This document shows, piece by piece, positions 12,005 through 49,068 of a DNA stretch of 64,000 nt. Each line of letters starts with the position of its first letter. Positions within the stretch are counted from its first letter, which is position 1. Position numbers and translations under genes: made by a program. Source of the DNA: an uncultured Methanosarcinales archaeon (GTDB taxonomy: Archaea; Nanobdellota; Nanobdellia; Woesearchaeales; ARS49); NCBI GenBank assembly GCA_964358315.1, contig CAYHOF010000002.1, positions 10,738-74,737 on the forward strand, in the 5' to 3' direction. The notes beneath the pieces were generated by a model. The model saw nothing but the letters and a program-made list of their open reading frames with translations. It was not told the origin of the DNA and searched no databases.

Positions 12005-12319
12005 TTATTTGTGTCCGAAGTAGAACATCTTCTTGATGTCGACGTCTTCGGGCGTGTAGTTGCCCTGGCGCGGGTGGGACGCCGGCTTGTCATCGGAAGG
12101 CAGCACTTTCTGTGCTGGTTCTGATCGCTGCTGCCGTGGCGCGGCCGCCATCTGCGCTTTGAGCTGTTGCATGTCCGACACTTGGGCCTTGATACTCTGG
12201 AACTCCATCGCGAGCGCTTGTATGGTGTCCTTGAGCAGCGTGACCTGCTTGTCGTATTTCTTCATCTGTTGCTCGAAGAGCATCTTGTACCGCTCTTCTA
12301 TCAACGCACTGCCATCCAT
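12005..12319 (-). CDS. Coiled-coil hypothetical protein, the last gene of a 3-gene minus-strand operon.
   Basis: The ORF is 104 aa with heptad-like repeats. It is tightly spaced behind the zinc-ribbon gene. Confidence 0.4.
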   Translation of the reverse strand: MDGSALIEERYKMLFEQQMKKYDKQVTLLKDTIQALAMEFQSIKAQVSDMQQLKAQMAAAPRQQRSEPAQKVLPSDDKPASHPRQGNYTPEDVDIKKMFYFGHK

Positions 12320-12337
12320 GATGATTCCTCCTCTTTT

Positions 12338-12574
12338 TCAGTAGTATGGTTCGAACTTCGGTGTGGTCTGGGGCTCGTTCACGGCCGGTTTTGATTGTTG
12401 TGGCGCCGGGATCTTTGCGCGCTGCACTGTTGAAAGCTGGCCGCTGCACTTGTCGCAGTAGACCTTGTTTCCGTTGCGTTGCGAGATGCACATCTCGCAC
12501 ACGCGCACGCCGCACCAGTTGCAGACGCCGATGATATCCTTGCGGTGCTTGATGCACCGGTCAGCACTACCCAT
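12338..12574 (-). CDS. Zinc-ribbon / B-box-like zinc-finger protein.
   Basis: Cys pairs CIKH...CNWC...CEMC...CDKC fall within 50 aa, consistent with a B-box or treble-clef pattern. Confidence 0.5.
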   Translation of the reverse strand: MGSADRCIKHRKDIIGVCNWCGVRVCEMCISQRNGNKVYCDKCSGQLSTVQRAKIPAPQQSKPAVNEPQTTPKFEPYY

Positions 12575-13315
12575 TCATGCACCCTGGAAGTTCTCCTTGA
12601 TGAACTCGAGCATCATGGTGTTGCCTGCCTTTTCGTAGGCGTCGTGCGCCATGCGCAGCACGCCTTGGCGCAGGCACGTGTCGCCGAGCAGGTTAAGCTT
12701 GTCCTTGTCTTCCGCGCCCGAGTATGACTTGAACGCGTACGCGAGCTGGTTGTCCGCGAGGCAGCGGTCGCCCACCTCGACGAGTTTGGGCTTGCTCTTG
12801 ATGGCGCTGAACACTTCGATGGCGAAGTCCCACTTGGACTTGTTCATGCAGAATTCGCCGACCTTGATGAGCTTCTCGTTGTTGCCGAGCAGCCGGTACG
12901 CCTTGATGGCGTCGCCGAGCCTGCCGTCCGTGAGGCACTTGTCGCCGATGCGCATGAGTTCGTCGCGGTTGTCCGCGAGGCGGAACGCGTCGATGGCGTG
13001 CGAGAACAGCGCGACTTTCTCGTAGTCGTGCCCGATCTCGGTGAGCTTCGAGCGGTTGCCGCTGAGGATGAACGCCTTGATCGCCTGGTCGAGCGAGCCT
13101 TTGCGTTGGTATTCCTCGCCAAGCGCGTTGAGGATGCCGAGGCGTGTCTCCTCGTTGAACATCGTCAGGTTGATGTTGTCCAGGCCTTTCTCGATGAGGC
13201 TTGGGACGATGCGTCGGAAATTGTCCATTTCAGGCTTCTTGTTCAAGACGGCCTGGCTTGCCTGCGCCATGTTGTCGACCATCTTCCTCATAATGACTGA
13301 ATCTTCGGCTGCCAC
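12575..13315 (-). CDS. Tandem-repeat protein with six 29-aa repeats (L..hG..C[LM]..G.L..AI.A[FY]...G), a TPR/HEAT-like solenoid.
   Basis: The repeats were aligned by eye, for example LMRIGDKCLTDGRLGDAIKAYRLLGNNEK and LVEVGDRCLADNQLAYAFKSYSGAEDKDK. Its stop abuts the start of the zinc-ribbon gene. Confidence 0.6.
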   Translation of the reverse strand: MAAEDSVIMRKMVDNMAQASQAVLNKKPEMDNFRRIVPSLIEKGLDNINLTMFNEETRLGILNALGEEYQRKGSLDQAIKAFILSGNRSKLTEIGHDYEKVALFSHAIDAFRLADNRDELMRIGDKCLTDGRLGDAIKAYRLLGNNEKLIKVGEFCMNKSKWDFAIEVFSAIKSKPKLVEVGDRCLADNQLAYAFKSYSGAEDKDKLNLLGDTCLRQGVLRMAHDAYEKAGNTMMLEFIKENFQGA

Positions 13316-13451
13316 GTGTTCACCTGCACTTCCTTTTTCTGTGTCCCTCTTTTACTATTCCGCAATAAAAACTGGAGACATATTTAAATTTTATTAGACT
13401 GCAGATGGGCGGGCGCAAAGCTTTTTATCCATTGCAGGGTGCGGCGCTGAC

Positions 13452-13889
13452 ATGGCTGAGGACATCATGACCACGCTGCGTGAGTGGGCGCTGCAGTACC
13501 TGCAGAACCGCGACCTGCTCATGCGGGCCATCACCGGGATCCAGAAGAACACGGACGGGTGGGACATCGTGCTCACGACGACCACGGAGTCCCGTTACGT
13601 GACCGTCCTGCCCGACCTTGGCGCCATCACAGGCATTCTTGAGAAGGCGAGCGGCAAGAATGTGCTTGTCGTCACGACCAACGTGCGCACGAACGTCGAC
13701 GCCGTCATCGCGGCATGGCCGGAACTCATCAAGCACCCTAAACTCTCGATCCTGTTCGTCAACCCGTACTCGGGCACGGACAAGCGCTGGACCATCAACC
13801 CGCACGTGCACGAGAAGGTCACCGAGCGCAAGGCGCTCAAGCTTGGCCTCTATAGTCTTTTCTCGACGGTCGAAGAATACGCGGGCTAA
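13452..13889 (+). CDS. Hypothetical protein (145 aa).
   Basis: The ORF has good GC3 codon usage. A divergent AT-rich promoter (TTTAAATTTTA) lies at about 13380-13395. Confidence 0.45.
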   Translation: MAEDIMTTLREWALQYLQNRDLLMRAITGIQKNTDGWDIVLTTTTESRYVTVLPDLGAITGILEKASGKNVLVVTTNVRTNVDAVIAAWPELIKHPKLSILFVNPYSGTDKRWTINPHVHEKVTERKALKLGLYSLFSTVEEYAG

Positions 13890-14225: not shown

Positions 14226-14296
14226 TGCGGCTGGCGGGAATCGAACCCGCATCCGAAGCTTGGGAAGCTCCTATTCTACCACTAAACTACAGCCGC
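14226..14296 (-). tRNA. tRNA-Gly (anticodon CCC). CCA is not encoded.
   Basis: Folded by hand from the reverse complement GCGGCTGTAGTTTAGTGGTAGAATAGGAGCTTCCCAAGCTTCGGATGCGGGTTCGATTCCCGCCAGCCGCA. The 7 bp acceptor stem, the anticodon loop UUCCCAA, the T-arm GCGGG-UUCGAUU-CCCGC and discriminator A are all consistent. Confidence 0.85.
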
Positions 14297-14320: not shown

Positions 14321-14330
14321 GATAAAAAAC
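14321..14330 (-). promoter_or_regulatory. TATA box (GTTTTTTATC on the minus strand) 25-34 nt upstream of the tRNA-Gly 5' end.
   Basis: The position relative to the tRNA was read directly. The element overlaps the stop of the PRC-barrel gene. Confidence 0.5.
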
Positions 14331-14629
14331 TACTCTTCTGCCTCGGACTCCTCGCCCGAGTAGCTCGGCACCGCGGCCTTGGATATAATCATGACGTCGC
14401 CGATGCTCTTGACGAGCGTGTGCGGCACGACGACTCCTTTTGCCGAGCCGAGCACCTTGCTCAAGAACGAGTTCTTGGTCGCGCGGACGCGCCAGCCATG
14501 CACTTTGGTCGGTGTGAGCACCGCTTCTTCCACGTCACCGAAATAGTCACCGGTATCCGTGAAGACCTTCATATCGTACGCTTCAGAAACCTTCTTGAGC
14601 TTCAACATCACCATTCCCTCCTTACACAA
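14330..14629 (-). CDS. PRC-barrel domain protein.
   Basis: It matches the small archaeal PRC-barrel pattern (VFTDTGDYFGDVEEAVL...VVVPHTLVKSIGDVMII). The exact start among several N-terminal Met codons is uncertain. Confidence 0.55.
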   Translation of the reverse strand: MCKEGMVMLKLKKVSEAYDMKVFTDTGDYFGDVEEAVLTPTKVHGWRVRATKNSFLSKVLGSAKGVVVPHTLVKSIGDVMIISKAAVPSYSGEESEAEE

Positions 14630-21638: not shown

Positions 21639-24077
21639 ATGCGTCGGGTTGTCGTCGTCCTGTCTTTGCTGCTCGCACTAGCATCGTCTGTCCTTGCCGC
21701 GCCTGCGACAGTCACTATCTCTCCTGTGTCGCTGTATGAGACCACGCAACGGCCCTTCACGCTCACCATCGACAACGACAACATCGGTGCGCAGGCGATC
21801 ACTGCAGTGGACATCACGACGCCCAACATGACCATCGATGCCGTGCGTCCGCTCAGTGGCTGGAGCGAGAACCACACGACGACCACGATCCGCTGGTCTG
21901 ATGGCGTTGTCGCAGAAGGCGCACTGCAGCGGCTGTACTACAACGCGAGTGCGGCCATCGTCACGGCAGACCAGACCATCACGATTCCGGTCATCGCAAC
22001 CACAGCTGGCGGCACGCAGAACACCGATGTCCAGATCACGATCCTCAACGATCCAAGCACGCCGAGCGTGACGTCGAACTTCCCGCAAGACGGCTCCTAC
22101 ATCCGCGAAGGCAAGACCGACCAGCGCGTCTTCGTCGACGCGCAGGACCCGCAGACCGGTGTCAAGAACGCGGACTTCTCCTACTGGGATTGCGCGAGCA
22201 ACACCAGCCACACGAACGTGGCGCTCACGTGCACCGCAGGCGTGTGCGAAACGATTCTCGACGTCTCGTCGTTCGATGAAGGCGACCGGATGTGCTTCGA
22301 ATTCCTCGTCTACAACAACGCGCTCGACGCGACCAACCTCTCCGGCAGCGCGGGCTTTGATGGCACCGCGCCCGCAATCGACGTCATCGCGCCCGCCGAC
22401 GGAGCGTATGGCGCCAACAACACTATCTTCACGTACAATGCGAGCGACAACCTCGCACCTACACTCTCCTGCGACCTGCTGCTGGATGGCACGATCATCG
22501 ATTCGGTGACGGCGACAAACGCCGCCATCACCACGACCACCTACGATATGTCATCGGCATCTGAAGGCACGCACGCGTGGAACCTGCAGTGCACTGACTG
22601 GGTCGGCTGGCTCACGGCGTCAGGCACGCGCAGCATCATCGTGGACAAGACGCCGCCGACCATCACGCTCAATAGTCCTGCGAACGGATCGACCATCCCC
22701 GACGGCATGATTATCGATATCTCGGTGATGGATAACTACGAAGTTGACACCGTGACCTATAGTGCCAGCCGCAATGCGTCCGACTTGCCTGAAGGCCTCA
22801 ACACGCTCACCGTGACCGCGACAGACAAAGCAGGCAACGTTGCGACAATCGGTTACGCATTCACTGTCGATCGGACCGCGCCGACCGTCACGCTCATCGC
22901 GCCGGCAGACAACAGCACGGTGGATGTCGCGCTGGGCTTCGAGTTCAGCGCCACTGACGCATTCGACACGTCACCGACCTGCACGCTCAGCGCTGATGGC
23001 AGCGCGCTCGCGACACAGGATGTCACGAACGGCACGCCGACCAACATCACGCAGACGCTCCCTATCGCGATCCACACATGGCAGGTGTCGTGCACAGACG
23101 ATGCAGGCAATGTCGGGACGAGTACATCCTGGACCGTCAACGTCACCGACCTCAGAGGGCCGACCATCATCTCTGACGTGGTCTACGTGGCACGCACCGA
23201 GGAATTCCCCTTCAGCGCAACGATCACCGACCCGAGTGGCGTGGCGAGCGCTGGTGCCGCGGTCGACGGATCGGCCATCACGTTCAGTGGCGTGAGCCCG
23301 ACTTACAGCGGCTCGATCCTGATGGATATCGGCACGCCGCTTGGCAGCCACGACCTCACGCTCGACGCGACAGACACGTACGGCAACCCGGGCGTGCTTG
23401 TCGATGCGTTCACGCTCATCCAAGGCTACACCATCACACTCAGCGCCAGTCCTGCTTCTGTCCTGCCAGGCGAGAGCGTCACGGTCGCTGGCACGGTCGT
23501 GCTTGACGATGGCGCTGCGGCGCCAGAACAGTCCCTCCTGCTCTTCCTGCCGGGCGAGACGGTGAACATCTCCATCGTCAACGGCACGTTCAGCACGTCG
23601 TTGAGCGCGCCAGGCGCAGGCACGTACACGATCGTTGCGTCCATCATCTCGTCCGAAGGCTTCGCACACAACAAGACGACGACGCTCACTGTCAACAACC
23701 CGCCTGCGCCAAGCGGTGGTGGCGGAGGCGGCGGTGGCCGTCGCAACAGCGGGTCGTCTGGTGTTGTGCAACCTCCTGCGCCGCAGGAGACTCCGCGCGT
23801 CAACCCTGCGCCGCTCTTGCCAGACGAGGATGAAGACAAGCCAGAGGAAGATGACGACAGCGGCAAGACTGAAGATACTGATGCAGGCGAAGTGATTCCT
23901 GAGGACGAGCCGCGCGTGCCCCTCGGCGTGGGTGCGTCCACGTCCTGGTTCGACAACGTGGTCGGCAATGTCTGGGCATGGCTCCTGCTCATCATCATCG
24001 CGATAGCGCTGGGCATCGCGGCCTTCAAGCGCAAGAAGAAGGACAACATCGACTGGGACGGCTATTTCGAGAAGTAG
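21639..24077 (+). CDS. Large secreted surface (S-layer-like) protein with tandem Ig-like beta domains. It has a Gly8/Pro-rich and acidic stalk and a C-terminal TM anchor with a KRKKKD tail.
   Basis: It has a signal peptide (MRRVVVVLSLLLALASSVLAAPA), repeated Thr/Asn-rich beta-rich modules, GGGGGGGG, and a DEDEDKPEEDDD stalk. The C-terminus reads WAWLLLIIIAIALGIAAFKRKKKD. Confidence 0.65.
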   Translation: MRRVVVVLSLLLALASSVLAAPATVTISPVSLYETTQRPFTLTIDNDNIGAQAITAVDITTPNMTIDAVRPLSGWSENHTTTTIRWSDGVVAEGALQRLYYNASAAIVTADQTITIPVIATTAGGTQNTDVQITILNDPSTPSVTSNFPQDGSYIREGKTDQRVFVDAQDPQTGVKNADFSYWDCASNTSHTNVALTCTAGVCETILDVSSFDEGDRMCFEFLVYNNALDATNLSGSAGFDGTAPAIDVIAPADGAYGANNTIFTYNASDNLAPTLSCDLLLDGTIIDSVTATNAAITTTTYDMSSASEGTHAWNLQCTDWVGWLTASGTRSIIVDKTPPTITLNSPANGSTIPDGMIIDISVMDNYEVDTVTYSASRNASDLPEGLNTLTVTATDKAGNVATIGYAFTVDRTAPTVTLIAPADNSTVDVALGFEFSATDAFDTSPTCTLSADGSALATQDVTNGTPTNITQTLPIAIHTWQVSCTDDAGNVGTSTSWTVNVTDLRGPTIISDVVYVARTEEFPFSATITDPSGVASAGAAVDGSAITFSGVSPTYSGSILMDIGTPLGSHDLTLDATDTYGNPGVLVDAFTLIQGYTITLSASPASVLPGESVTVAGTVVLDDGAAAPEQSLLLFLPGETVNISIVNGTFSTSLSAPGAGTYTIVASIISSEGFAHNKTTTLTVNNPPAPSGGGGGGGGRRNSGSSGVVQPPAPQETPRVNPAPLLPDEDEDKPEEDDDSGKTEDTDAGEVIPEDEPRVPLGVGASTSWFDNVVGNVWAWLLLIIIAIALGIAAFKRKKKDNIDWDGYFEK

Positions 24078-45375: not shown

Positions 45376-48300
45376 GTGACGAACAGACCATACTCGCCCA
45401 TGACCGACCCTGACCAGCTGGATGACGCGCCCGCCACCGAACAGACCGCAGAGGTGTTGCCCGCGCTCCCGATGGACGCCGCGGACATGATCCGCAAGTT
45501 CAAGGAATTCTTCGAACAATACTATTATGGCGAGCTGCTCGAGGCGTTGCGCAAGGGCGAGCGCCACATGGGCATCGACTTCCAGAAGCTCGTGCGCTTC
45601 GACCCGCAGCTTGGCGACCTCGTGCTCGACCAGCCCCAAGACGCGCTCAAGGCAGGCGAGCTTGCCGTGCGCGAGTTCGACGCGAAGGTCAAGCAGTTCA
45701 CCATTCGTCTGAGCAACCTACCTGGCAGCAGCTTCCTCATGTTGCGTCACGTGCGCAGCAGGCACTTGGGCAAGATCATGTTCACCGAAGGGATTGTGCG
45801 CCAGAAAAGCGACGTGCGACCGCAGGTCACGGAGGCGACGTTCGAGTGCCCGAGCTGCGGCAACCGCCTCAGCGTGCTGCAGCTCGACACCACGTTCAAG
45901 GAGCCCACGCGCTGCAGTTGCGGACGCAAGGGGAAGTTCAAGCTCACCGGCAAAGAGCTCGTGGACGCGCAAGGCATCGTGCTCGAGGAGGCCGCGGAAC
46001 AGCTCGAGGGCGGCGAGCAGCCAAAGCGCATGAACATCTTTCTCAAGAACGACCTCGTGAGCCCGATCACCGAAAAAAGAACGAACCCCGGCTCGAAGAT
46101 CCGCATCACCGGCGTCATCAAGGAAGTGCCGATCACGACCAAGTCCGGCGGGACGAGCACGCGTTTCGACCTGCTCATCGAGGCCAACCACGTGCTGCCG
46201 GTCGAGGAGGACTTCTCCGAGATCACGATCAGCAAGGAGGAGATGCAGAAGATCCTCGACCTCAAGAACGACCCACATATCGAGAAAAAGCTCATCGACA
46301 GCGTGGCGCCCAACATCTACGGCCACGAAAAGATCAAAGAAGCGCTCGTCCTCCAGCTCATGGGCGGCGTGCGCAAGACCCGTGACCAGGGCGCGGGCGC
46401 GACGACAAGAGGCGACATCCACATCCTGCTCATCGGCGACCCTGGTTCGGGCAAGTCGCAGATGCTCAAACGCATCAGCAAAGTGGCGTTGCGCGGCCGT
46501 TTCATCTCGGGCAAAGGCGTCTCGGGCGCGGGATTGACCGCGAGCGTCGTCAAGGACGAATTCCTCTCGGGCTGGAGCCTTGAGGCAGGCGCGCTCGTGC
46601 TCTCCAACAAAGGCATCTGTTGCATCGACGAACTCGACAAGATGACGGACGAAGACCGCGCGGCTATGCATGAGGCACTGGAAGGTCAAAGCTATCATCC
46701 TGACACTGAACTGCTGCTCGCGGATGGCAGTCGGACAACGATTGGAAGTTTTGTCGACGACGTGATGCGACAATGCACTGTCGTACAAGGGACCGATTGT
46801 GAATTCGCGTTCCCAAAAGACACCACGATCCTCACCACTGACTTCCAGCGCGTTGCACCTGCACGCATCGCACGCGTGAGCCGTCATCCGGCGCCCACGA
46901 CATTTTTCCGCATCACGTTCTCGAATGGACGCGCCATCACCGTCACGCCCGAACATCCTCTGTTCGTGTACACGCACGGAGAGGTCAGCGTGACGCCCGC
47001 ATGCATGGCCACGGTCGGCACCATGGTGCCGGCGCCCAGACGACTGCCCATCGAAGGACGGGCGGTCGCACTCACGCAACCCGCCAAACAGTATCATCAT
47101 GCCAAACCGCACGTGTTACCGACGCACCTGAACGCCGACCTTGCACGCTTGCTCGGCTACGTCGTCACTGAAGGTCATTGTTATGCGAACCCGACCAACC
47201 GCACGTACGAGATCGGCGTGAGCAATACTGACACGAGAATAATCAATGAGGTCGCCGCTCTGTTCAGGAACATTTTCGCGACCGACGTCATCGTCACAAC
47301 GCAAGCAGCGGACAAGCGAGAAAAAGCGACGCGCGATTTATACACCGTCAGGTGCTGCTCACGTCCTATCCATGATTTTTTCGCGCTGAATTTCCCGGAA
47401 CTCATGACGAAAGCGCCGCGTAAACGCGCTCCCTCCGGCATCATGCGGGCGACGGAGGATTGTGTCCGTGCGTTCTTGCAGGGAGCCTTCCGTGGAGATG
47501 GCACGGTCAGCAGTGATGACGTGGGGTTTGCGACAGCCTCACGAAAACTGGCGGAAGACTACCAGGACCTGATGCTGCGGCTGGGAACGCCATCCATCAT
47601 CCGCACCGAACACCGCAACGCCGCGACGTACCATAAGACCATCGTCACAGGCACGGTGGCCGAAAAAACGCACTGGGCCGATTCCATCGTCGTTGAGGAT
47701 GATCCGCGACATCATCGCATCCGCGCCCTTCTTCGACGTGCTGCGCAGAAGAACAACCAACGCGATCCGGTTCCTTCCGAGATCGCCGCGCTCACGCATA
47801 AGGCGCTTCTCGCGCTGAAAATGGCGGATGGCAATATCTCGAGCACGCTCGCCCGCGGCCACGCGCCCTCACGTCAGACCATCACGACCTACGTCGACAA
47901 GATAGATGGCCGACTCGATCTGATTGCAAGATCAGAAGGACGCACTGCCCGCAGACTCGCCAACGTGCAGGTCAGCTCGCTTGCGGAGGGAATGGGACGA
48001 TCGAGCGGTCACGTCTATAACGCCGAACTGGACCACCATCAGGAACACGCGACATACACCACCGTGCTCGACCGACAGGTCGCCCGGAAGATCGGCACTG
48101 TCCAAGAATTGATGGCTCCTGTCAAGCGTTTCCTCGATGCGGATCTCAGAGTGCACACCATCACGAATGTCGAGAGGATCGACAACCCGGGGATCGCGTT
48201 GGTCTATGACGTCACGGTAGAGCCGCACCACAGCTTCATCAGTCAAGGGATGGTCTTGCACAACACGGTGACGATCAGCAAGGCCAACATCCAGGCGACG

Positions 48301-49068
48301 TTGCGTTGCGAGACCACCGTGCTCGCTGCCGCGAACCCGAAGCTGGGGCGTTTCGACCCGTATGAGATCATCGCGAAACAGATCGACCTGCCGCCGACGC
48401 TCATCAACCGTTTCGACCTCATCTTCCCGATCAAGGACCTGCCTGACCCTGTCAAGGACAACAACATGGCGAGCTTCATCCTCGAGATGCACCGCACCGA
48501 GGCAGGCATGAACGCGACCATCGACACTCCGCTGTTCCGCAAGTTCGTCGCGTACGCGAAACTCCACATCAGGCCGCACCTGAGCGAGGAGGCGATCGCC
48601 GAACTCAAGGACTACTACATCCGCATGCGCGGCAGCAGCTCGAGGGAGAGCGGCGTCGTCAAGAGCATCCCGATCTCGGCGCGTCAGCTTGAAGGTCTCG
48701 TGCGTCTGAGCGAGGCGCACGCACGCATGCGCCTCTCCGAGATCGTCGAGCGCAAGGACGCGCGCAAGGCCATAGAACTCCTCGATTACTGCCTGCGCCA
48801 GATCGCGCTCGACGAGGAGACCGGACAGATCGACATCGACCGCATCGGTTCGGACACGTCGTCGAGCCAACGCAACAAGATCCTCCAGGTCAAGGAGATC
48901 ATCAAGACGCTCGAGAACAAGGTCGGCAAGGTCATCCCGATCGACGACGTCGAGCAGGAAGCCGCCCAGAAGGGAGTCACGGACGCGGAGCTCGACGAGA
49001 TCATCCAGAAGCTCAAGAAGAGCGGCGACGTCTTCGAGCCAAAGAGCGGCTACATCTCACGGATCTGA
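45376..49068 (+). CDS. mcm: MCM replicative helicase interrupted by an in-frame intein. The extein is about 705 aa.
   Basis: The N-terminal OB/Zn domain has CPSCGN...CSCG. Walker A is GDPGSGKSQ. Walker B is CIDELDKM followed by the intein, and the TVTISKANIQATL motif resumes after it. The start is GTG 45376 or ATG 45400. Confidence 0.9.
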   Translation: MTNRPYSPMTDPDQLDDAPATEQTAEVLPALPMDAADMIRKFKEFFEQYYYGELLEALRKGERHMGIDFQKLVRFDPQLGDLVLDQPQDALKAGELAVREFDAKVKQFTIRLSNLPGSSFLMLRHVRSRHLGKIMFTEGIVRQKSDVRPQVTEATFECPSCGNRLSVLQLDTTFKEPTRCSCGRKGKFKLTGKELVDAQGIVLEEAAEQLEGGEQPKRMNIFLKNDLVSPITEKRTNPGSKIRITGVIKEVPITTKSGGTSTRFDLLIEANHVLPVEEDFSEITISKEEMQKILDLKNDPHIEKKLIDSVAPNIYGHEKIKEALVLQLMGGVRKTRDQGAGATTRGDIHILLIGDPGSGKSQMLKRISKVALRGRFISGKGVSGAGLTASVVKDEFLSGWSLEAGALVLSNKGICCIDELDKMTDEDRAAMHEALEGQSYHPDTELLLADGSRTTIGSFVDDVMRQCTVVQGTDCEFAFPKDTTILTTDFQRVAPARIARVSRHPAPTTFFRITFSNGRAITVTPEHPLFVYTHGEVSVTPACMATVGTMVPAPRRLPIEGRAVALTQPAKQYHHAKPHVLPTHLNADLARLLGYVVTEGHCYANPTNRTYEIGVSNTDTRIINEVAALFRNIFATDVIVTTQAADKREKATRDLYTVRCCSRPIHDFFALNFPELMTKAPRKRAPSGIMRATEDCVRAFLQGAFRGDGTVSSDDVGFATASRKLAEDYQDLMLRLGTPSIIRTEHRNAATYHKTIVTGTVAEKTHWADSIVVEDDPRHHRIRALLRRAAQKNNQRDPVPSEIAALTHKALLALKMADGNISSTLARGHAPSRQTITTYVDKIDGRLDLIARSEGRTARRLANVQVSSLAEGMGRSSGHVYNAELDHHQEHATYTTVLDRQVARKIGTVQELMAPVKRFLDADLRVHTITNVERIDNPGIALVYDVTVEPHHSFISQGMVLHNTVTISKANIQATLRCETTVLAAANPKLGRFDPYEIIAKQIDLPPTLINRFDLIFPIKDLPDPVKDNNMASFILEMHRTEAGMNATIDTPLFRKFVAYAKLHIRPHLSEEAIAELKDYYIRMRGSSSRESGVVKSIPISARQLEGLVRLSEAHARMRLSEIVERKDARKAIELLDYCLRQIALDEETGQIDIDRIGSDTSSSQRNKILQVKEIIKTLENKVGKVIPIDDVEQEAAQKGVTDAELDEIIQKLKKSGDVFEPKSGYISRI
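46690..48264 (+). mobile_element. Intein (525 aa) with a LAGLIDADG homing-endonuclease domain, inserted in the MCM Walker B/sensor-1 region.
   Basis: It begins with Ser after ...HEALEGQ and ends in HN, followed by Thr at +1. Block A is SYHPDTELLLADG, and the LAGLIDADG-like motifs are LLGYVVTEG and FLQGAFRGDG. The flanking extein matches the MCM consensus. Confidence 0.8.

What the first reader, a model, noticed from the sequence alone, without database searches (positions are those of the whole stretch)
12005..13315. Three-gene operon: 29-aa tandem-repeat solenoid, B-box-like zinc ribbon and coiled-coil protein
Three tightly abutting minus-strand genes encode a protein of six precise 29-residue repeats with conserved Gly, Cys and Ala positions, a 78-aa Cys8 zinc-ribbon protein and a 104-aa coiled-coil protein. 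None matches a characterised system. The architecture resembles small regulatory or scaffolding modules.
Basis: seen in the sequence. Interest (0 to 1): 0.5.

Follow-up and report, generated by a model that had tools for sequence, protein, structure and literature searches.

The report
FtsZ-linked solenoid and coiled-coil operon
The three genes are a real operon of an uncultured Woesearchaeota-type archaeon, and in related genomes its two core genes sit directly beside the division genes ftsZ or sepF, so it is probably an undescribed accessory module of archaeal cell division.

Summary
Three abutting minus-strand genes encode A (246 aa, six gap-free 29-residue helical repeats), B (78 aa, two-zinc finger with 7 Cys and 1 His, not Cys8) and C (104 aa: coiled coil, disordered linker, near-invariant C-terminal peptide).

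- **Conservation:** A occurs in at least 53 species-level MAGs, nearly all Woesearchaeota/Nanoarchaeia. The conserved core is the A-C pair (about 45 of 57 loci). B occurs in only one clade.
- **Context:** ftsZ lies directly upstream of A in 15 loci. sepF lies directly downstream of A in 3. A PRC-barrel gene lies within 3 kb in 22, including the window.
- **A:** a TPR-clan alpha-solenoid with a short 29-residue period. Its closest natural matches are the clathrin, IFT-A and COPI solenoids. Homology to them is unproven.
- **B:** only weakly B-box-like.
- **C:** matches nothing known.
- **Literature:** I found no paper describing this family.

Best reading (confidence about 0.5): a lineage-specific FtsZ-divisome accessory module. 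A would act as a peptide-binding scaffold, C as a dimerising partner and B as a clade-specific zinc-finger add-on. The functional link rests on gene order in relatives. The window itself has no ftsZ or sepF.

The parts
12575..13315 (-). Gene A: 246-aa alpha-solenoid protein (238 aa if it starts at the ATG at 13291)
   Evidence: ORF. The AF2 model has mean pLDDT 87 and 15 helices. Orthologues occur in 53 GTDB species genomes. ftsZ lies directly upstream in 15 loci and sepF directly downstream in 3.
12611..13132 (-). Six 29-residue helix-hairpin repeats (residues 62-235 of A)
   Evidence: The units align without gaps, with a strong lag-29 autocorrelation. There is no DNA tandem repeat. Pfam gives TPR_2 at 26.9 bits (GA 27) and Clathrin, IFT140/172 and COPA/B TPR below their thresholds.
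13156..13204 (-). Family-specific N-terminal motif of A (about residues 38-53, P-S-L-x2-K-G-x-D-N-x-N-L-x-M-F)
   Evidence: P38, G44, L50, M52 and F53 are invariant in 55 orthologues. Together with the C-terminal G-N-x-M-M-x2-F-I-K-E-N-F motif, this is the best-conserved non-repeat part of A.
12338..12574 (-). Gene B: 78-aa two-zinc finger, Pro-rich linker and C-terminal EPYY
   Evidence: ORF. There are 8 invariant ligands. zf-B_box scores 20.7 bits, below GA 24.1, and all 20 members fall below GA. The AF2 core has pLDDT about 90. B is present only in the PRC-linked clade.
12446..12556 (-). Zinc-binding core of B (residues 7-43; C-x2-H-x7-C-x2-C-x4-C-x2-C-x10-C-x2-C)
   Evidence: Alignments A2 and A8. 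Foldseek gave no significant PDB match. The best hits (E 0.3-2) are FYVE/Rab-effector fingers, LIM domains, the ClpX zinc-binding domain and TRIM5 B-box2.
12005..12319 (-). Gene C: 104-aa coiled coil, disordered linker and conserved C-terminal peptide
   Evidence: ORF. It follows A (or A-B) in about 45 of 57 loci, mostly with gaps under 40 nt. It has no significant Pfam, NCBIfam or PDB match.
12146..12298 (-). Coiled-coil segment of C (about residues 8-58)
   Evidence: Heptad score 0.90 against 0.45 +/- 0.11 in shuffles, with no Pro or Gly.
12008..12076 (-). C-terminal motif of C (HPRQGNYTPEDVDIKKMFYFGHK)
   Evidence: Across 45 orthologues K and F are invariant, V, Y and G are present in 43 of 45, and P, R, G, D and I are nearly so. 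The motif occurs in no other ORF of the 70 loci.
13381..13388 (-). TTTAAATA, a candidate archaeal TATA box for the operon, in the 136-bp divergent intergenic region
   Evidence: Read from the sequence. An AGGTGA Shine-Dalgarno lies 4 nt before the GTG at 13315. This is inferred, not tested.
12327..12333 (-). GAGGAGG Shine-Dalgarno ahead of C
   Evidence: Read from the sequence.
14330..14629 (-). Neighbouring PRC-barrel gene (99 aa), same strand, about 1 kb upstream of A. It is context, not a proven part.
   Evidence: Pfam PRC scores 23.9 bits, above GA 21.2. An orthologue lies within 3 kb upstream of A in 22 loci. PRC-barrel proteins CdpB1-3 are division proteins in haloarchaea (10.1101/2023.03.28.534520).
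13452..13889 (+). Conserved divergent neighbour 'D143' (145 aa, no known family). It is context only.
   Evidence: It lies next to A in 17 loci. It has no Pfam, PADLOC or PDB match.

Best explanation

Shown:
- A and C are a conserved, tightly coupled gene pair.
- In one large clade the pair lies directly downstream of ftsZ.
- In another clade A is followed directly by sepF instead of C.
- In the window's clade the pair has moved next to a PRC-barrel gene and has gained B between A and C.

Inferred mechanism:
- A is a curved TPR-like solenoid that acts as an adaptor for short linear peptides.
- C dimerises through its coiled coil. It offers its near-invariant 22-residue C-terminal peptide, on a flexible linker, either to A or to FtsZ. 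An A-C complex could therefore bridge or bundle division-ring components.
- B (zinc finger, disordered linker, short C-terminal motif) has the same layout as the haloarchaeal FtsZ1 partners CdpC and DipC. It would add a further contact in the clade that has it.
For: **Operon.** The A-B gap is 0 nt and the B-C gap is 18 nt with a Shine-Dalgarno.

**Conservation.** The same three-gene order occurs in independent metagenome contigs. There are 53 loci in GTDB species genomes.

**Gene order** (local HMM searches):
- ftsZ -> A -> C (often followed by a double zinc-ribbon gene) in 15 loci. Most ftsZ-A gaps are under 10 nt.
- A -> sepF in 3 loci. Two of the three were scanned against Pfam and pass the SepF threshold at 42 and 32 bits (GA 27).
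- A PRC-barrel gene within 3 kb upstream in 22 loci, including the window.

**Independence.** These contexts map to separate clades of the A tree, whose members are only 40-50% identical.

**The adjacent FtsZ is genuine.** It carries the Tubulin and FtsZ_C domains, and its best solved relative is M. jannaschii FtsZ1 at 312 bits.

**C's peptide.** K and F are invariant in 45 sequences. That points to a specific protein contact.

**Published parallels.**
- PRC-barrel proteins, SepF and zinc-ribbon-plus-linker proteins are the known archaeal FtsZ partners (10.1101/2023.03.28.534520; PMC8178401; 10.64898/2026.07.16.738847; PMC13228585).
- The CdpC preprint reports remote multi-zinc-ribbon relatives in most DPANN phyla.

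**Exclusions.** There are no defence-system hits. The window is core chromosome, with MCM, PolD, Hef and SecY.
Against: - The 64-kb window has no ftsZ or sepF. The link is transferred from orthologues.
- There are only about three independent gene-order arrangements. Within each clade the synteny is inherited.
- PRC-barrel genes are often not division genes and frequently sit near translation genes (10.1101/2023.03.28.534520). The window's own context is therefore the weakest of the three.
- More distant A-like proteins lie next to TrmB and GlyRS or unrelated genes, not division genes.
- No interaction could be modelled, because the structure tool takes single chains only.
- TPR-like scaffolds serve many processes.
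- The organisms are uncultured, so there are no experimental data.
Confidence: 0.5

Rival explanations
1. A is a generic protein-protein scaffold or co-chaperone-like module (TPR adaptor, zinc finger and coiled coil) for protein folding, assembly or turnover. It would have no specific division role, and its position beside ftsZ or sepF would be incidental operon hitch-hiking.
For: A is in the TPR clan. A distant repeat relative carries a DnaJ domain (P0033). TPR domains classically bind the C-terminal peptides of chaperones (established knowledge). The window's own neighbours are housekeeping genes.
Against: The family lies beside three different division-related genes in three clades, with translational-coupling distances. 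No chaperone gene is conserved nearby.
Confidence: 0.2
2. The module is regulatory. B would be a nucleic-acid-binding zinc finger and C a coiled-coil partner, with A as a sensor or scaffold, together controlling transcription or translation of neighbouring genes.
For: Small archaeal zinc-finger proteins are often regulators (stated in 10.64898/2026.07.16.738847). PRC-barrel genes commonly lie near translation genes. A distant A-like gene is divergent from a TrmB regulator.
Against: B is missing from most of the family, whereas A-C is conserved. None of the three proteins shows a helix-turn-helix or other DNA-binding domain. C's invariant peptide and A's solenoid point to protein-protein contacts.
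Confidence: 0.1
3. A is a prokaryotic relative of the eukaryotic coat-type solenoids (clathrin heavy-chain repeat, IFT-A, COPI) and acts in membrane shaping or vesicle formation, possibly at host-contact sites of these episymbionts.
For: - 51 of 55 members hit Pfam Clathrin at E <= 0.01, with a best value of 1.6e-7. One member passes the curated threshold.
- Longer repeat relatives pass the TPR_COPA_B and Clathrin thresholds.
- The profile aligns to clathrin heavy chain over 119 versus 122 residues, which is the same period.
Against: - The window protein is below every threshold.
- Foldseek TM-scores are low, at 0.25-0.37.
- Designed repeat proteins score higher than any natural one, so the similarity may only reflect convergent helical-hairpin geometry.
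- There is no beta-propeller and no membrane-binding element.
Confidence: 0.07

Closest known systems
Archaeal FtsZ partners: SepF, PRC-barrel CdpB1-3, and CdpC / DipC (zinc ribbon, disordered linker, conserved end)
   Same: - Small accessory proteins genomically tied to ftsZ. The A family lies beside ftsZ, sepF or a PRC-barrel gene.
- B shares the layout of DipC and CdpC: an N-terminal zinc domain, a disordered linker and a conserved C-terminus (PMC13228585; 10.64898/2026.07.16.738847).
   Different: - A and C have no sequence or fold relation to SepF or the PRC barrel.
- B shows no obvious N-terminal amphipathic helix.
- No TPR-like divisome protein has been reported for archaea in the papers searched.
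Peptide-binding TPR adaptors (Hop/Sti1 TPR domains binding EEVD-COOH; bacterial TPR division and envelope proteins such as CpoB and cyanobacterial ZipN/ARC6). Recalled from general knowledge.
   Same: - A stack of helix hairpins that usually binds extended or C-terminal peptides.
- Both partners here carry short conserved C-terminal motifs: EPYY in B and KMFYFGHK in C.
- One SepF adjacent to A ends in EEDYY.
   Different: - The period is 29 residues, not 34. Alignment to consensus TPR needs about 5 gapped residues per repeat.
- No peptide binding has been shown.
- A has its own conserved N- and C-terminal caps that are absent from these proteins.
Clathrin heavy-chain repeat, IFT-A and COPI alpha-solenoids
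   Same: - A hairpin period of about 29-30 residues.
   Different: - Scores are sub-threshold for the window protein.
- There is no beta-propeller.
- A is a 246-aa stand-alone protein.
- Convergence is not excluded.
TRIM-type B-box plus coiled-coil arrangement
   Same: A B-box-like two-zinc finger is followed by a coiled coil, here as the adjacent genes B and C.
   Different: - The two parts are separate polypeptides.
- B is below the B-box threshold in all 20 members, and the TRIM5 B-box2 fold hit has E of about 2.
- The last ligand pair is C-x2-C after 10 residues, instead of H-x2-4-H after 3-6.
- There is no RING domain.

Membership tests
Tetratricopeptide repeat (Pfam clan TPR; TPR_2 PF07719) | Tandem helix-turn-helix hairpins stacked into a solenoid | tested here: met
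   The AF2 model has pLDDT 87 and 15 helices in regular pairs. The top Foldseek hits are consensus TPR, OGT, SPY and LapB.
Tetratricopeptide repeat (Pfam clan TPR; TPR_2 PF07719) | 34-residue period | tested here: not met
   The period is exactly 29 residues in all six units. The profile alignment to consensus TPR covers 167 query residues against 192 target residues.
Tetratricopeptide repeat (Pfam clan TPR; TPR_2 PF07719) | Score at or above the curated Pfam threshold | tested here: inconclusive
   The window protein scores 26.9 bits against a GA of 27. Seven of ten orthologues tested individually pass, at 28.5-36.2 bits. All 55 members hit at E <= 0.01.
Clathrin heavy-chain repeat (Pfam Clathrin PF00637) | Score at or above the curated threshold (29.6 bits) | tested here: not met
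   The window protein scores 18.4 bits. One of ten orthologues tested passes (L062, 31.6 bits). 51 of 55 members hit at E <= 0.01.
Clathrin heavy-chain repeat (Pfam Clathrin PF00637) | Helix-hairpin period of about 29-30 residues | tested here: met
   The family profile aligns to clathrin heavy chain 1b89 over 119 versus 122 residues.
Coat-type (protocoatomer) architecture | N-terminal beta-propeller followed by an alpha-solenoid | tested here: not met
   A is all-helical and has no propeller. No propeller gene is conserved nearby.
B-box zinc finger (Pfam zf-B_box PF00643) | Score at or above the curated threshold (24.1 bits) | tested here: not met
   The window protein scores 20.7 bits. All 20 family members hit, but all are below the threshold; the best E-value is 1.3e-4.
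B-box zinc finger (Pfam zf-B_box PF00643) | Eight ligands with B-box spacing (C-x2-H-x7-C-x2-C-x4-C-x2-C, then H-x2-4-H) | tested here: inconclusive
   The first six ligands fit. The last pair is C-x2-C after 10 residues. The reference spacing was recalled from general knowledge.
B-box zinc finger (Pfam zf-B_box PF00643) | Cross-brace two-zinc fold | tested here: inconclusive
   The model core has pLDDT about 90. Foldseek gave no hit with E < 0.27, and TRIM5 B-box2 has E of about 2.
FtsZ-divisome accessory proteins (a functional class) | Conserved genomic linkage with ftsZ or sepF | tested here: met
   The feature is met for the family: ftsZ is adjacent in 15 loci and sepF in 3. It is not met in the window itself, which has only a PRC-barrel gene about 1 kb upstream.
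FtsZ-divisome accessory proteins (a functional class) | Physical binding to FtsZ or its anchors, and mid-cell localisation | not testable with these tools
   Only single-chain structure prediction was available, and the organisms are uncultured.
CdpC / DipC-type zinc-ribbon division proteins | Sequence homology to HVO_0399 or HVO_3012 | not tested
Only the layout (zinc domain, disordered linker, conserved end) matches.

The most novel reading that the evidence does not exclude
A would be a true prokaryotic homologue of the clathrin / IFT-A / COPI-type short-period alpha-solenoids. It would work directly with a tubulin-family filament (FtsZ1) at a constricting membrane. That would make it a DPANN-archaeal precedent for the pairing of coat-like solenoids with tubulin-family polymers seen in eukaryotic intraflagellar transport. 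The adjacent zinc finger would echo the solenoid-plus-RING layout of Vps11, Vps18 and Vps39.
Probability: 0.06. Interest if true: 0.85.

Novelty: new variant of a known kind. Interest (0 to 1): 0.55.

Why it matters
Very few components of the FtsZ-based archaeal divisome are known: FtsZ1/2, SepF, CdpA, CdpB1-3 and, in 2026 preprints, CdpC and the Dip system. Almost all of them come from haloarchaea. Nothing is known for DPANN archaea, which have tiny cells and reduced genomes.

A protein pair that is conserved across Woesearchaeota and encoded in the ftsZ operon gives concrete candidates for recombinant binding and filament-assembly assays. These can be run without cultivating the organisms.

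The short-period solenoid also bears on whether coat-like repeats existed in archaea outside the Asgard group.

Tried and rejected
- **Defence system:** no PADLOC hit for A, B, C or the divergent neighbour.
- **Mobile element or phage:** the window is core chromosome, with MCM, PolD, Hef, SecY, ribosomal proteins and tRNAs.
- **Recent DNA repeat expansion:** no tandem repeat at the DNA level.
- **Stop-codon read-through fusion:** A, B and C lie in one reading frame in the window, separated only by stops. The frame relation is not conserved in L002 or L007, so this is a coincidence.
- **B homologous to the downstream double zinc-ribbon gene of the ftsZ-linked clade:** hhalign probability about 1%.
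- **C related to ZapB, YabA or another coiled-coil family:** only insignificant coiled-coil noise.
- **C's tail as a generic amphipathic membrane anchor:** its hydrophobic moment is unremarkable and its sequence conservation is far stronger than is usual for such helices. This reading is not excluded.
- **Distant A-like proteins as an independent test of the FtsZ link:** they are not next to division genes.
- **Word-indexed homologue search:** it found only 2 relatives of A and badly understated the family. The exhaustive search found 368 hits and the genome scan found 53 loci.

Full report
**1. What is there**

The three minus-strand ORFs exist exactly as described:
- A at 12575..13315 (246 aa)
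- B at 12338..12574 (78 aa)
- C at 12005..12319 (104 aa)

A's stop codon is followed immediately by B's ATG. B and C are separated by 18 nt that contain a GAGGAGG Shine-Dalgarno. A TTTAAATA box lies about 70 nt upstream of A, in the 136-bp region shared with a divergent gene. This is the layout of a single archaeal transcription unit.

The window is core chromosome of an archaeon. It carries an intein-containing MCM, PolD DP1/DP2, Hef, SecY, ribosomal proteins, RNase J and two tRNAs.

**2. The three proteins**

*Protein A*
- It has six gap-free 29-residue units (residues 62-235). L1, G5 and A17 are invariant, position 8 is Y or C, and position 21 is F or Y.
- BLOSUM autocorrelation at lag 29 is +1.11, against a best value of -0.12 in 1000 shuffles.
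- There is no DNA-level tandem repeat, so the repeats are ancient.
- AlphaFold2 gives a confident model (pLDDT 87) of 15 helices forming a regular solenoid.

*Protein B*
- It has eight invariant ligands: C7, H10, C18, C21, C26, C29, C40 and C43. That is seven Cys and one His, not eight Cys.
- A Pro-rich linker follows. In the window's subclade the protein ends in an invariant EPYY.

*Protein C*
- Residues about 8-58 form a heptad-patterned helix (score 0.90 against 0.45 +/- 0.11 in shuffles).
- A P/Q-rich linker follows.
- The C-terminal motif is hP-R-x-G-x-Y-x-P-x-D-V-x-I-x-K-[MF]-F-Y-[FY]-G-x-K. K and F are invariant, and V, Y and G are present in 43 of 45 orthologues.

**3. Family assignments**

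*Protein A*
- It belongs to the TPR clan but has a short period.
- The window protein is just below the TPR_2 threshold (26.9 against 27 bits). All 55 orthologues hit TPR_2. Seven of the ten scanned individually pass the threshold.
- The next most consistent matches are unusual for a prokaryotic TPR. Pfam Clathrin hits 51 of 55 members (best 1.6e-7, one member above threshold). IFT140/172 TPR hits 27 and COPA/B TPR hits 24.
- A family profile searched against PDB sequences ranks engineered consensus TPRs first, but only with about 5 gapped residues per repeat. Among natural proteins it ranks clathrin heavy chain first (119 against 122 residues, the same period), then IFT140.
- Foldseek TM-scores are low, at 0.25-0.37.
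- I read this as a short-period TPR-like solenoid with coat-type geometry. Homology to coat proteins is not established.

*Protein B*
- It hits zf-B_box in all 20 family members, always below threshold.
- Its model has a confident core, but no PDB match is significant.

*Protein C*
- It matches nothing beyond coiled-coil noise.

None of the three hits NCBIfam or PADLOC.

**4. Distribution**

- The word-indexed search suggested extreme rarity, with 2 to 5 hits per protein. That was an artefact of its sensitivity.
- An exhaustive profile search found 368 proteins at E <= 1e-3 and 145 at E <= 1e-10.
- A pattern scan of one genome per GTDB species found 53 loci. Nearly all are titled Woesearchaeota, Nanoarchaeia or Nanoarchaeota. 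Some are evidently mislabelled bins.
- The window's closest relative is a MAG from a deep mine (L014; A is 85% identical).

**5. Gene order, the main finding**

Using HMMs of A, B and C, phmmer queries and a clustering of all neighbouring ORFs, I found the following:
- C follows A (or A-B) in about 45 of 57 non-redundant loci. A-C gaps are mostly under 40 nt, and A-B gaps run from -4 to +6 nt.
- B is present in only about 24 loci, all in one clade.
- A genuine ftsZ lies directly upstream of A on the same strand in 15 loci, usually less than 10 nt away. It has the Tubulin and FtsZ_C domains, and its best solved relative is M. jannaschii FtsZ1 at 312 bits. In these loci C is often followed by a double zinc-ribbon gene of about 125 aa.
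- In three loci the gene directly after A is sepF, not C. Two of the three were checked against Pfam SepF and score above threshold.
- In 22 loci, including the window (14330..14629), a PRC-barrel gene lies within 3 kb upstream on the same strand (Pfam PRC above threshold).

On a neighbour-joining tree of A these contexts correspond to separate clades whose members are only 40-50% identical. The window's clade is the one with both the PRC-barrel gene and B.

**6. Interpretation**

SepF is the archaeal FtsZ anchor (PMC8178401). The PRC-barrel proteins CdpB1-3 are SepF-recruited division proteins in haloarchaea (10.1101/2023.03.28.534520). Two 2026 preprints add zinc-ribbon-plus-disordered-linker proteins as FtsZ1 partners. 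One is CdpC, with remote multi-zinc-ribbon relatives reported in most DPANN phyla (10.64898/2026.07.16.738847). The other is DipC (PMC13228585).

A protein pair that sits beside ftsZ, sepF or a PRC-barrel gene in three clades, at translational-coupling distances, is most simply explained as a lineage-specific divisome accessory module.

The mechanism below is inferred, not shown:
- The solenoid A is a peptide-binding adaptor.
- C dimerises and presents its invariant tail to A or to FtsZ.
- B has the same layout as DipC and CdpC and adds a contact in its clade.

Two small observations fit a model in which A reads C-terminal peptides. B ends in EPYY, and one A-adjacent SepF ends in EEDYY.

**7. 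Cautions**

- The window has no ftsZ or sepF, so the link is by orthology.
- There are only about three independent arrangements.
- The PRC-barrel paper itself notes that many PRC-barrel genes lie next to translation genes.
- More distant A-like proteins (L067, L071) are not near division genes.
- No complex could be modelled.
- I found no paper describing this family. The library does not cover all journals.

**8. Verdict**

I rate it as a new variant of a known kind (FtsZ accessory proteins), with interest 0.55. Confidence in the division-module reading is about 0.5. The rivals are a generic scaffold (0.2), a regulator (0.1) and a coat-like membrane shaper (0.07).

Noticed in passing
window 45376..49068 (+): The 1230-aa MCM helicase is interrupted by an intein with a LAGLIDADG homing-endonuclease domain (Pfam MCM, Intein_splicing, LAGLIDADG_3).
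   Followed up: no
window 13452..13889 (+): A 145-aa protein is transcribed divergently from A and is conserved next to A in 17 loci. It has no Pfam, PADLOC or PDB match. It may or may not belong to the module.
   Followed up: partly
window 12008..13315 (-): A, B and C lie in a single reading frame, separated only by two stop codons and a six-codon spacer (A*B*KRGGII-C). The frame relation is not conserved in relatives, so it is probably a coincidence.
   Followed up: yes
L033, L034, L040, L042, L046, L048-L050, L052-L054 (gene after C): In ftsZ-A-C loci the next gene is a double zinc-ribbon protein of about 125 aa (C-x2-C...C-x2-C twice, with a CPYCG motif). It may be one of the remote CdpC-like proteins reported for DPANN in a 2026 preprint. 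Homology was not tested.
   Followed up: partly
L057, L058, L064 (gene after A): SepF takes the position of C directly after A. The L064 SepF ends in EEDYY, which resembles the EPYY end of B in the window's clade.
   Followed up: partly
P0001, P0002, P0066: P0001 and P0002 are the same A homologue with different repeat units missing, which suggests assembly collapse or real repeat-number variation. P0066 joins the N-terminus of an A homologue to the C-terminal domains of a tRNA ligase and is probably a chimeric assembly.
   Followed up: no
L066 and the loci titled 'uncultured Methanosarcinales' (e.g. L015-L017, L024): L066 is titled Bacteroidetes bacterium but carries an archaeal ftsZ followed by A, so it looks like a mis-binned contig. 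Many 'Methanosarcinales' bins carry the Woesearchaeal locus and are probably mislabelled.
   Followed up: no
L016-L024, L027-L032, L039, L041, L045, L055, L065 (gene C): In most of the PRC-linked clade C carries an extra N-terminal helix of about 35 residues (MDVEKLRKINxLSxELKKHGM...DAYxQAQ). The window's subclade and the ftsZ-linked clade lack it.
   Followed up: no
window 21639..24077 (+): An 812-aa protein has several bacterial Ig-like domains (Big_3_3, Big_7, Big_13). It is probably a surface or adhesion protein, which may be relevant to an episymbiotic lifestyle.
   Followed up: no
window 14226..14296 (-): tRNA-Gly(CCC) lies between the DUF212 (divergent PAP2) gene and the PRC-barrel gene.
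   Followed up: no
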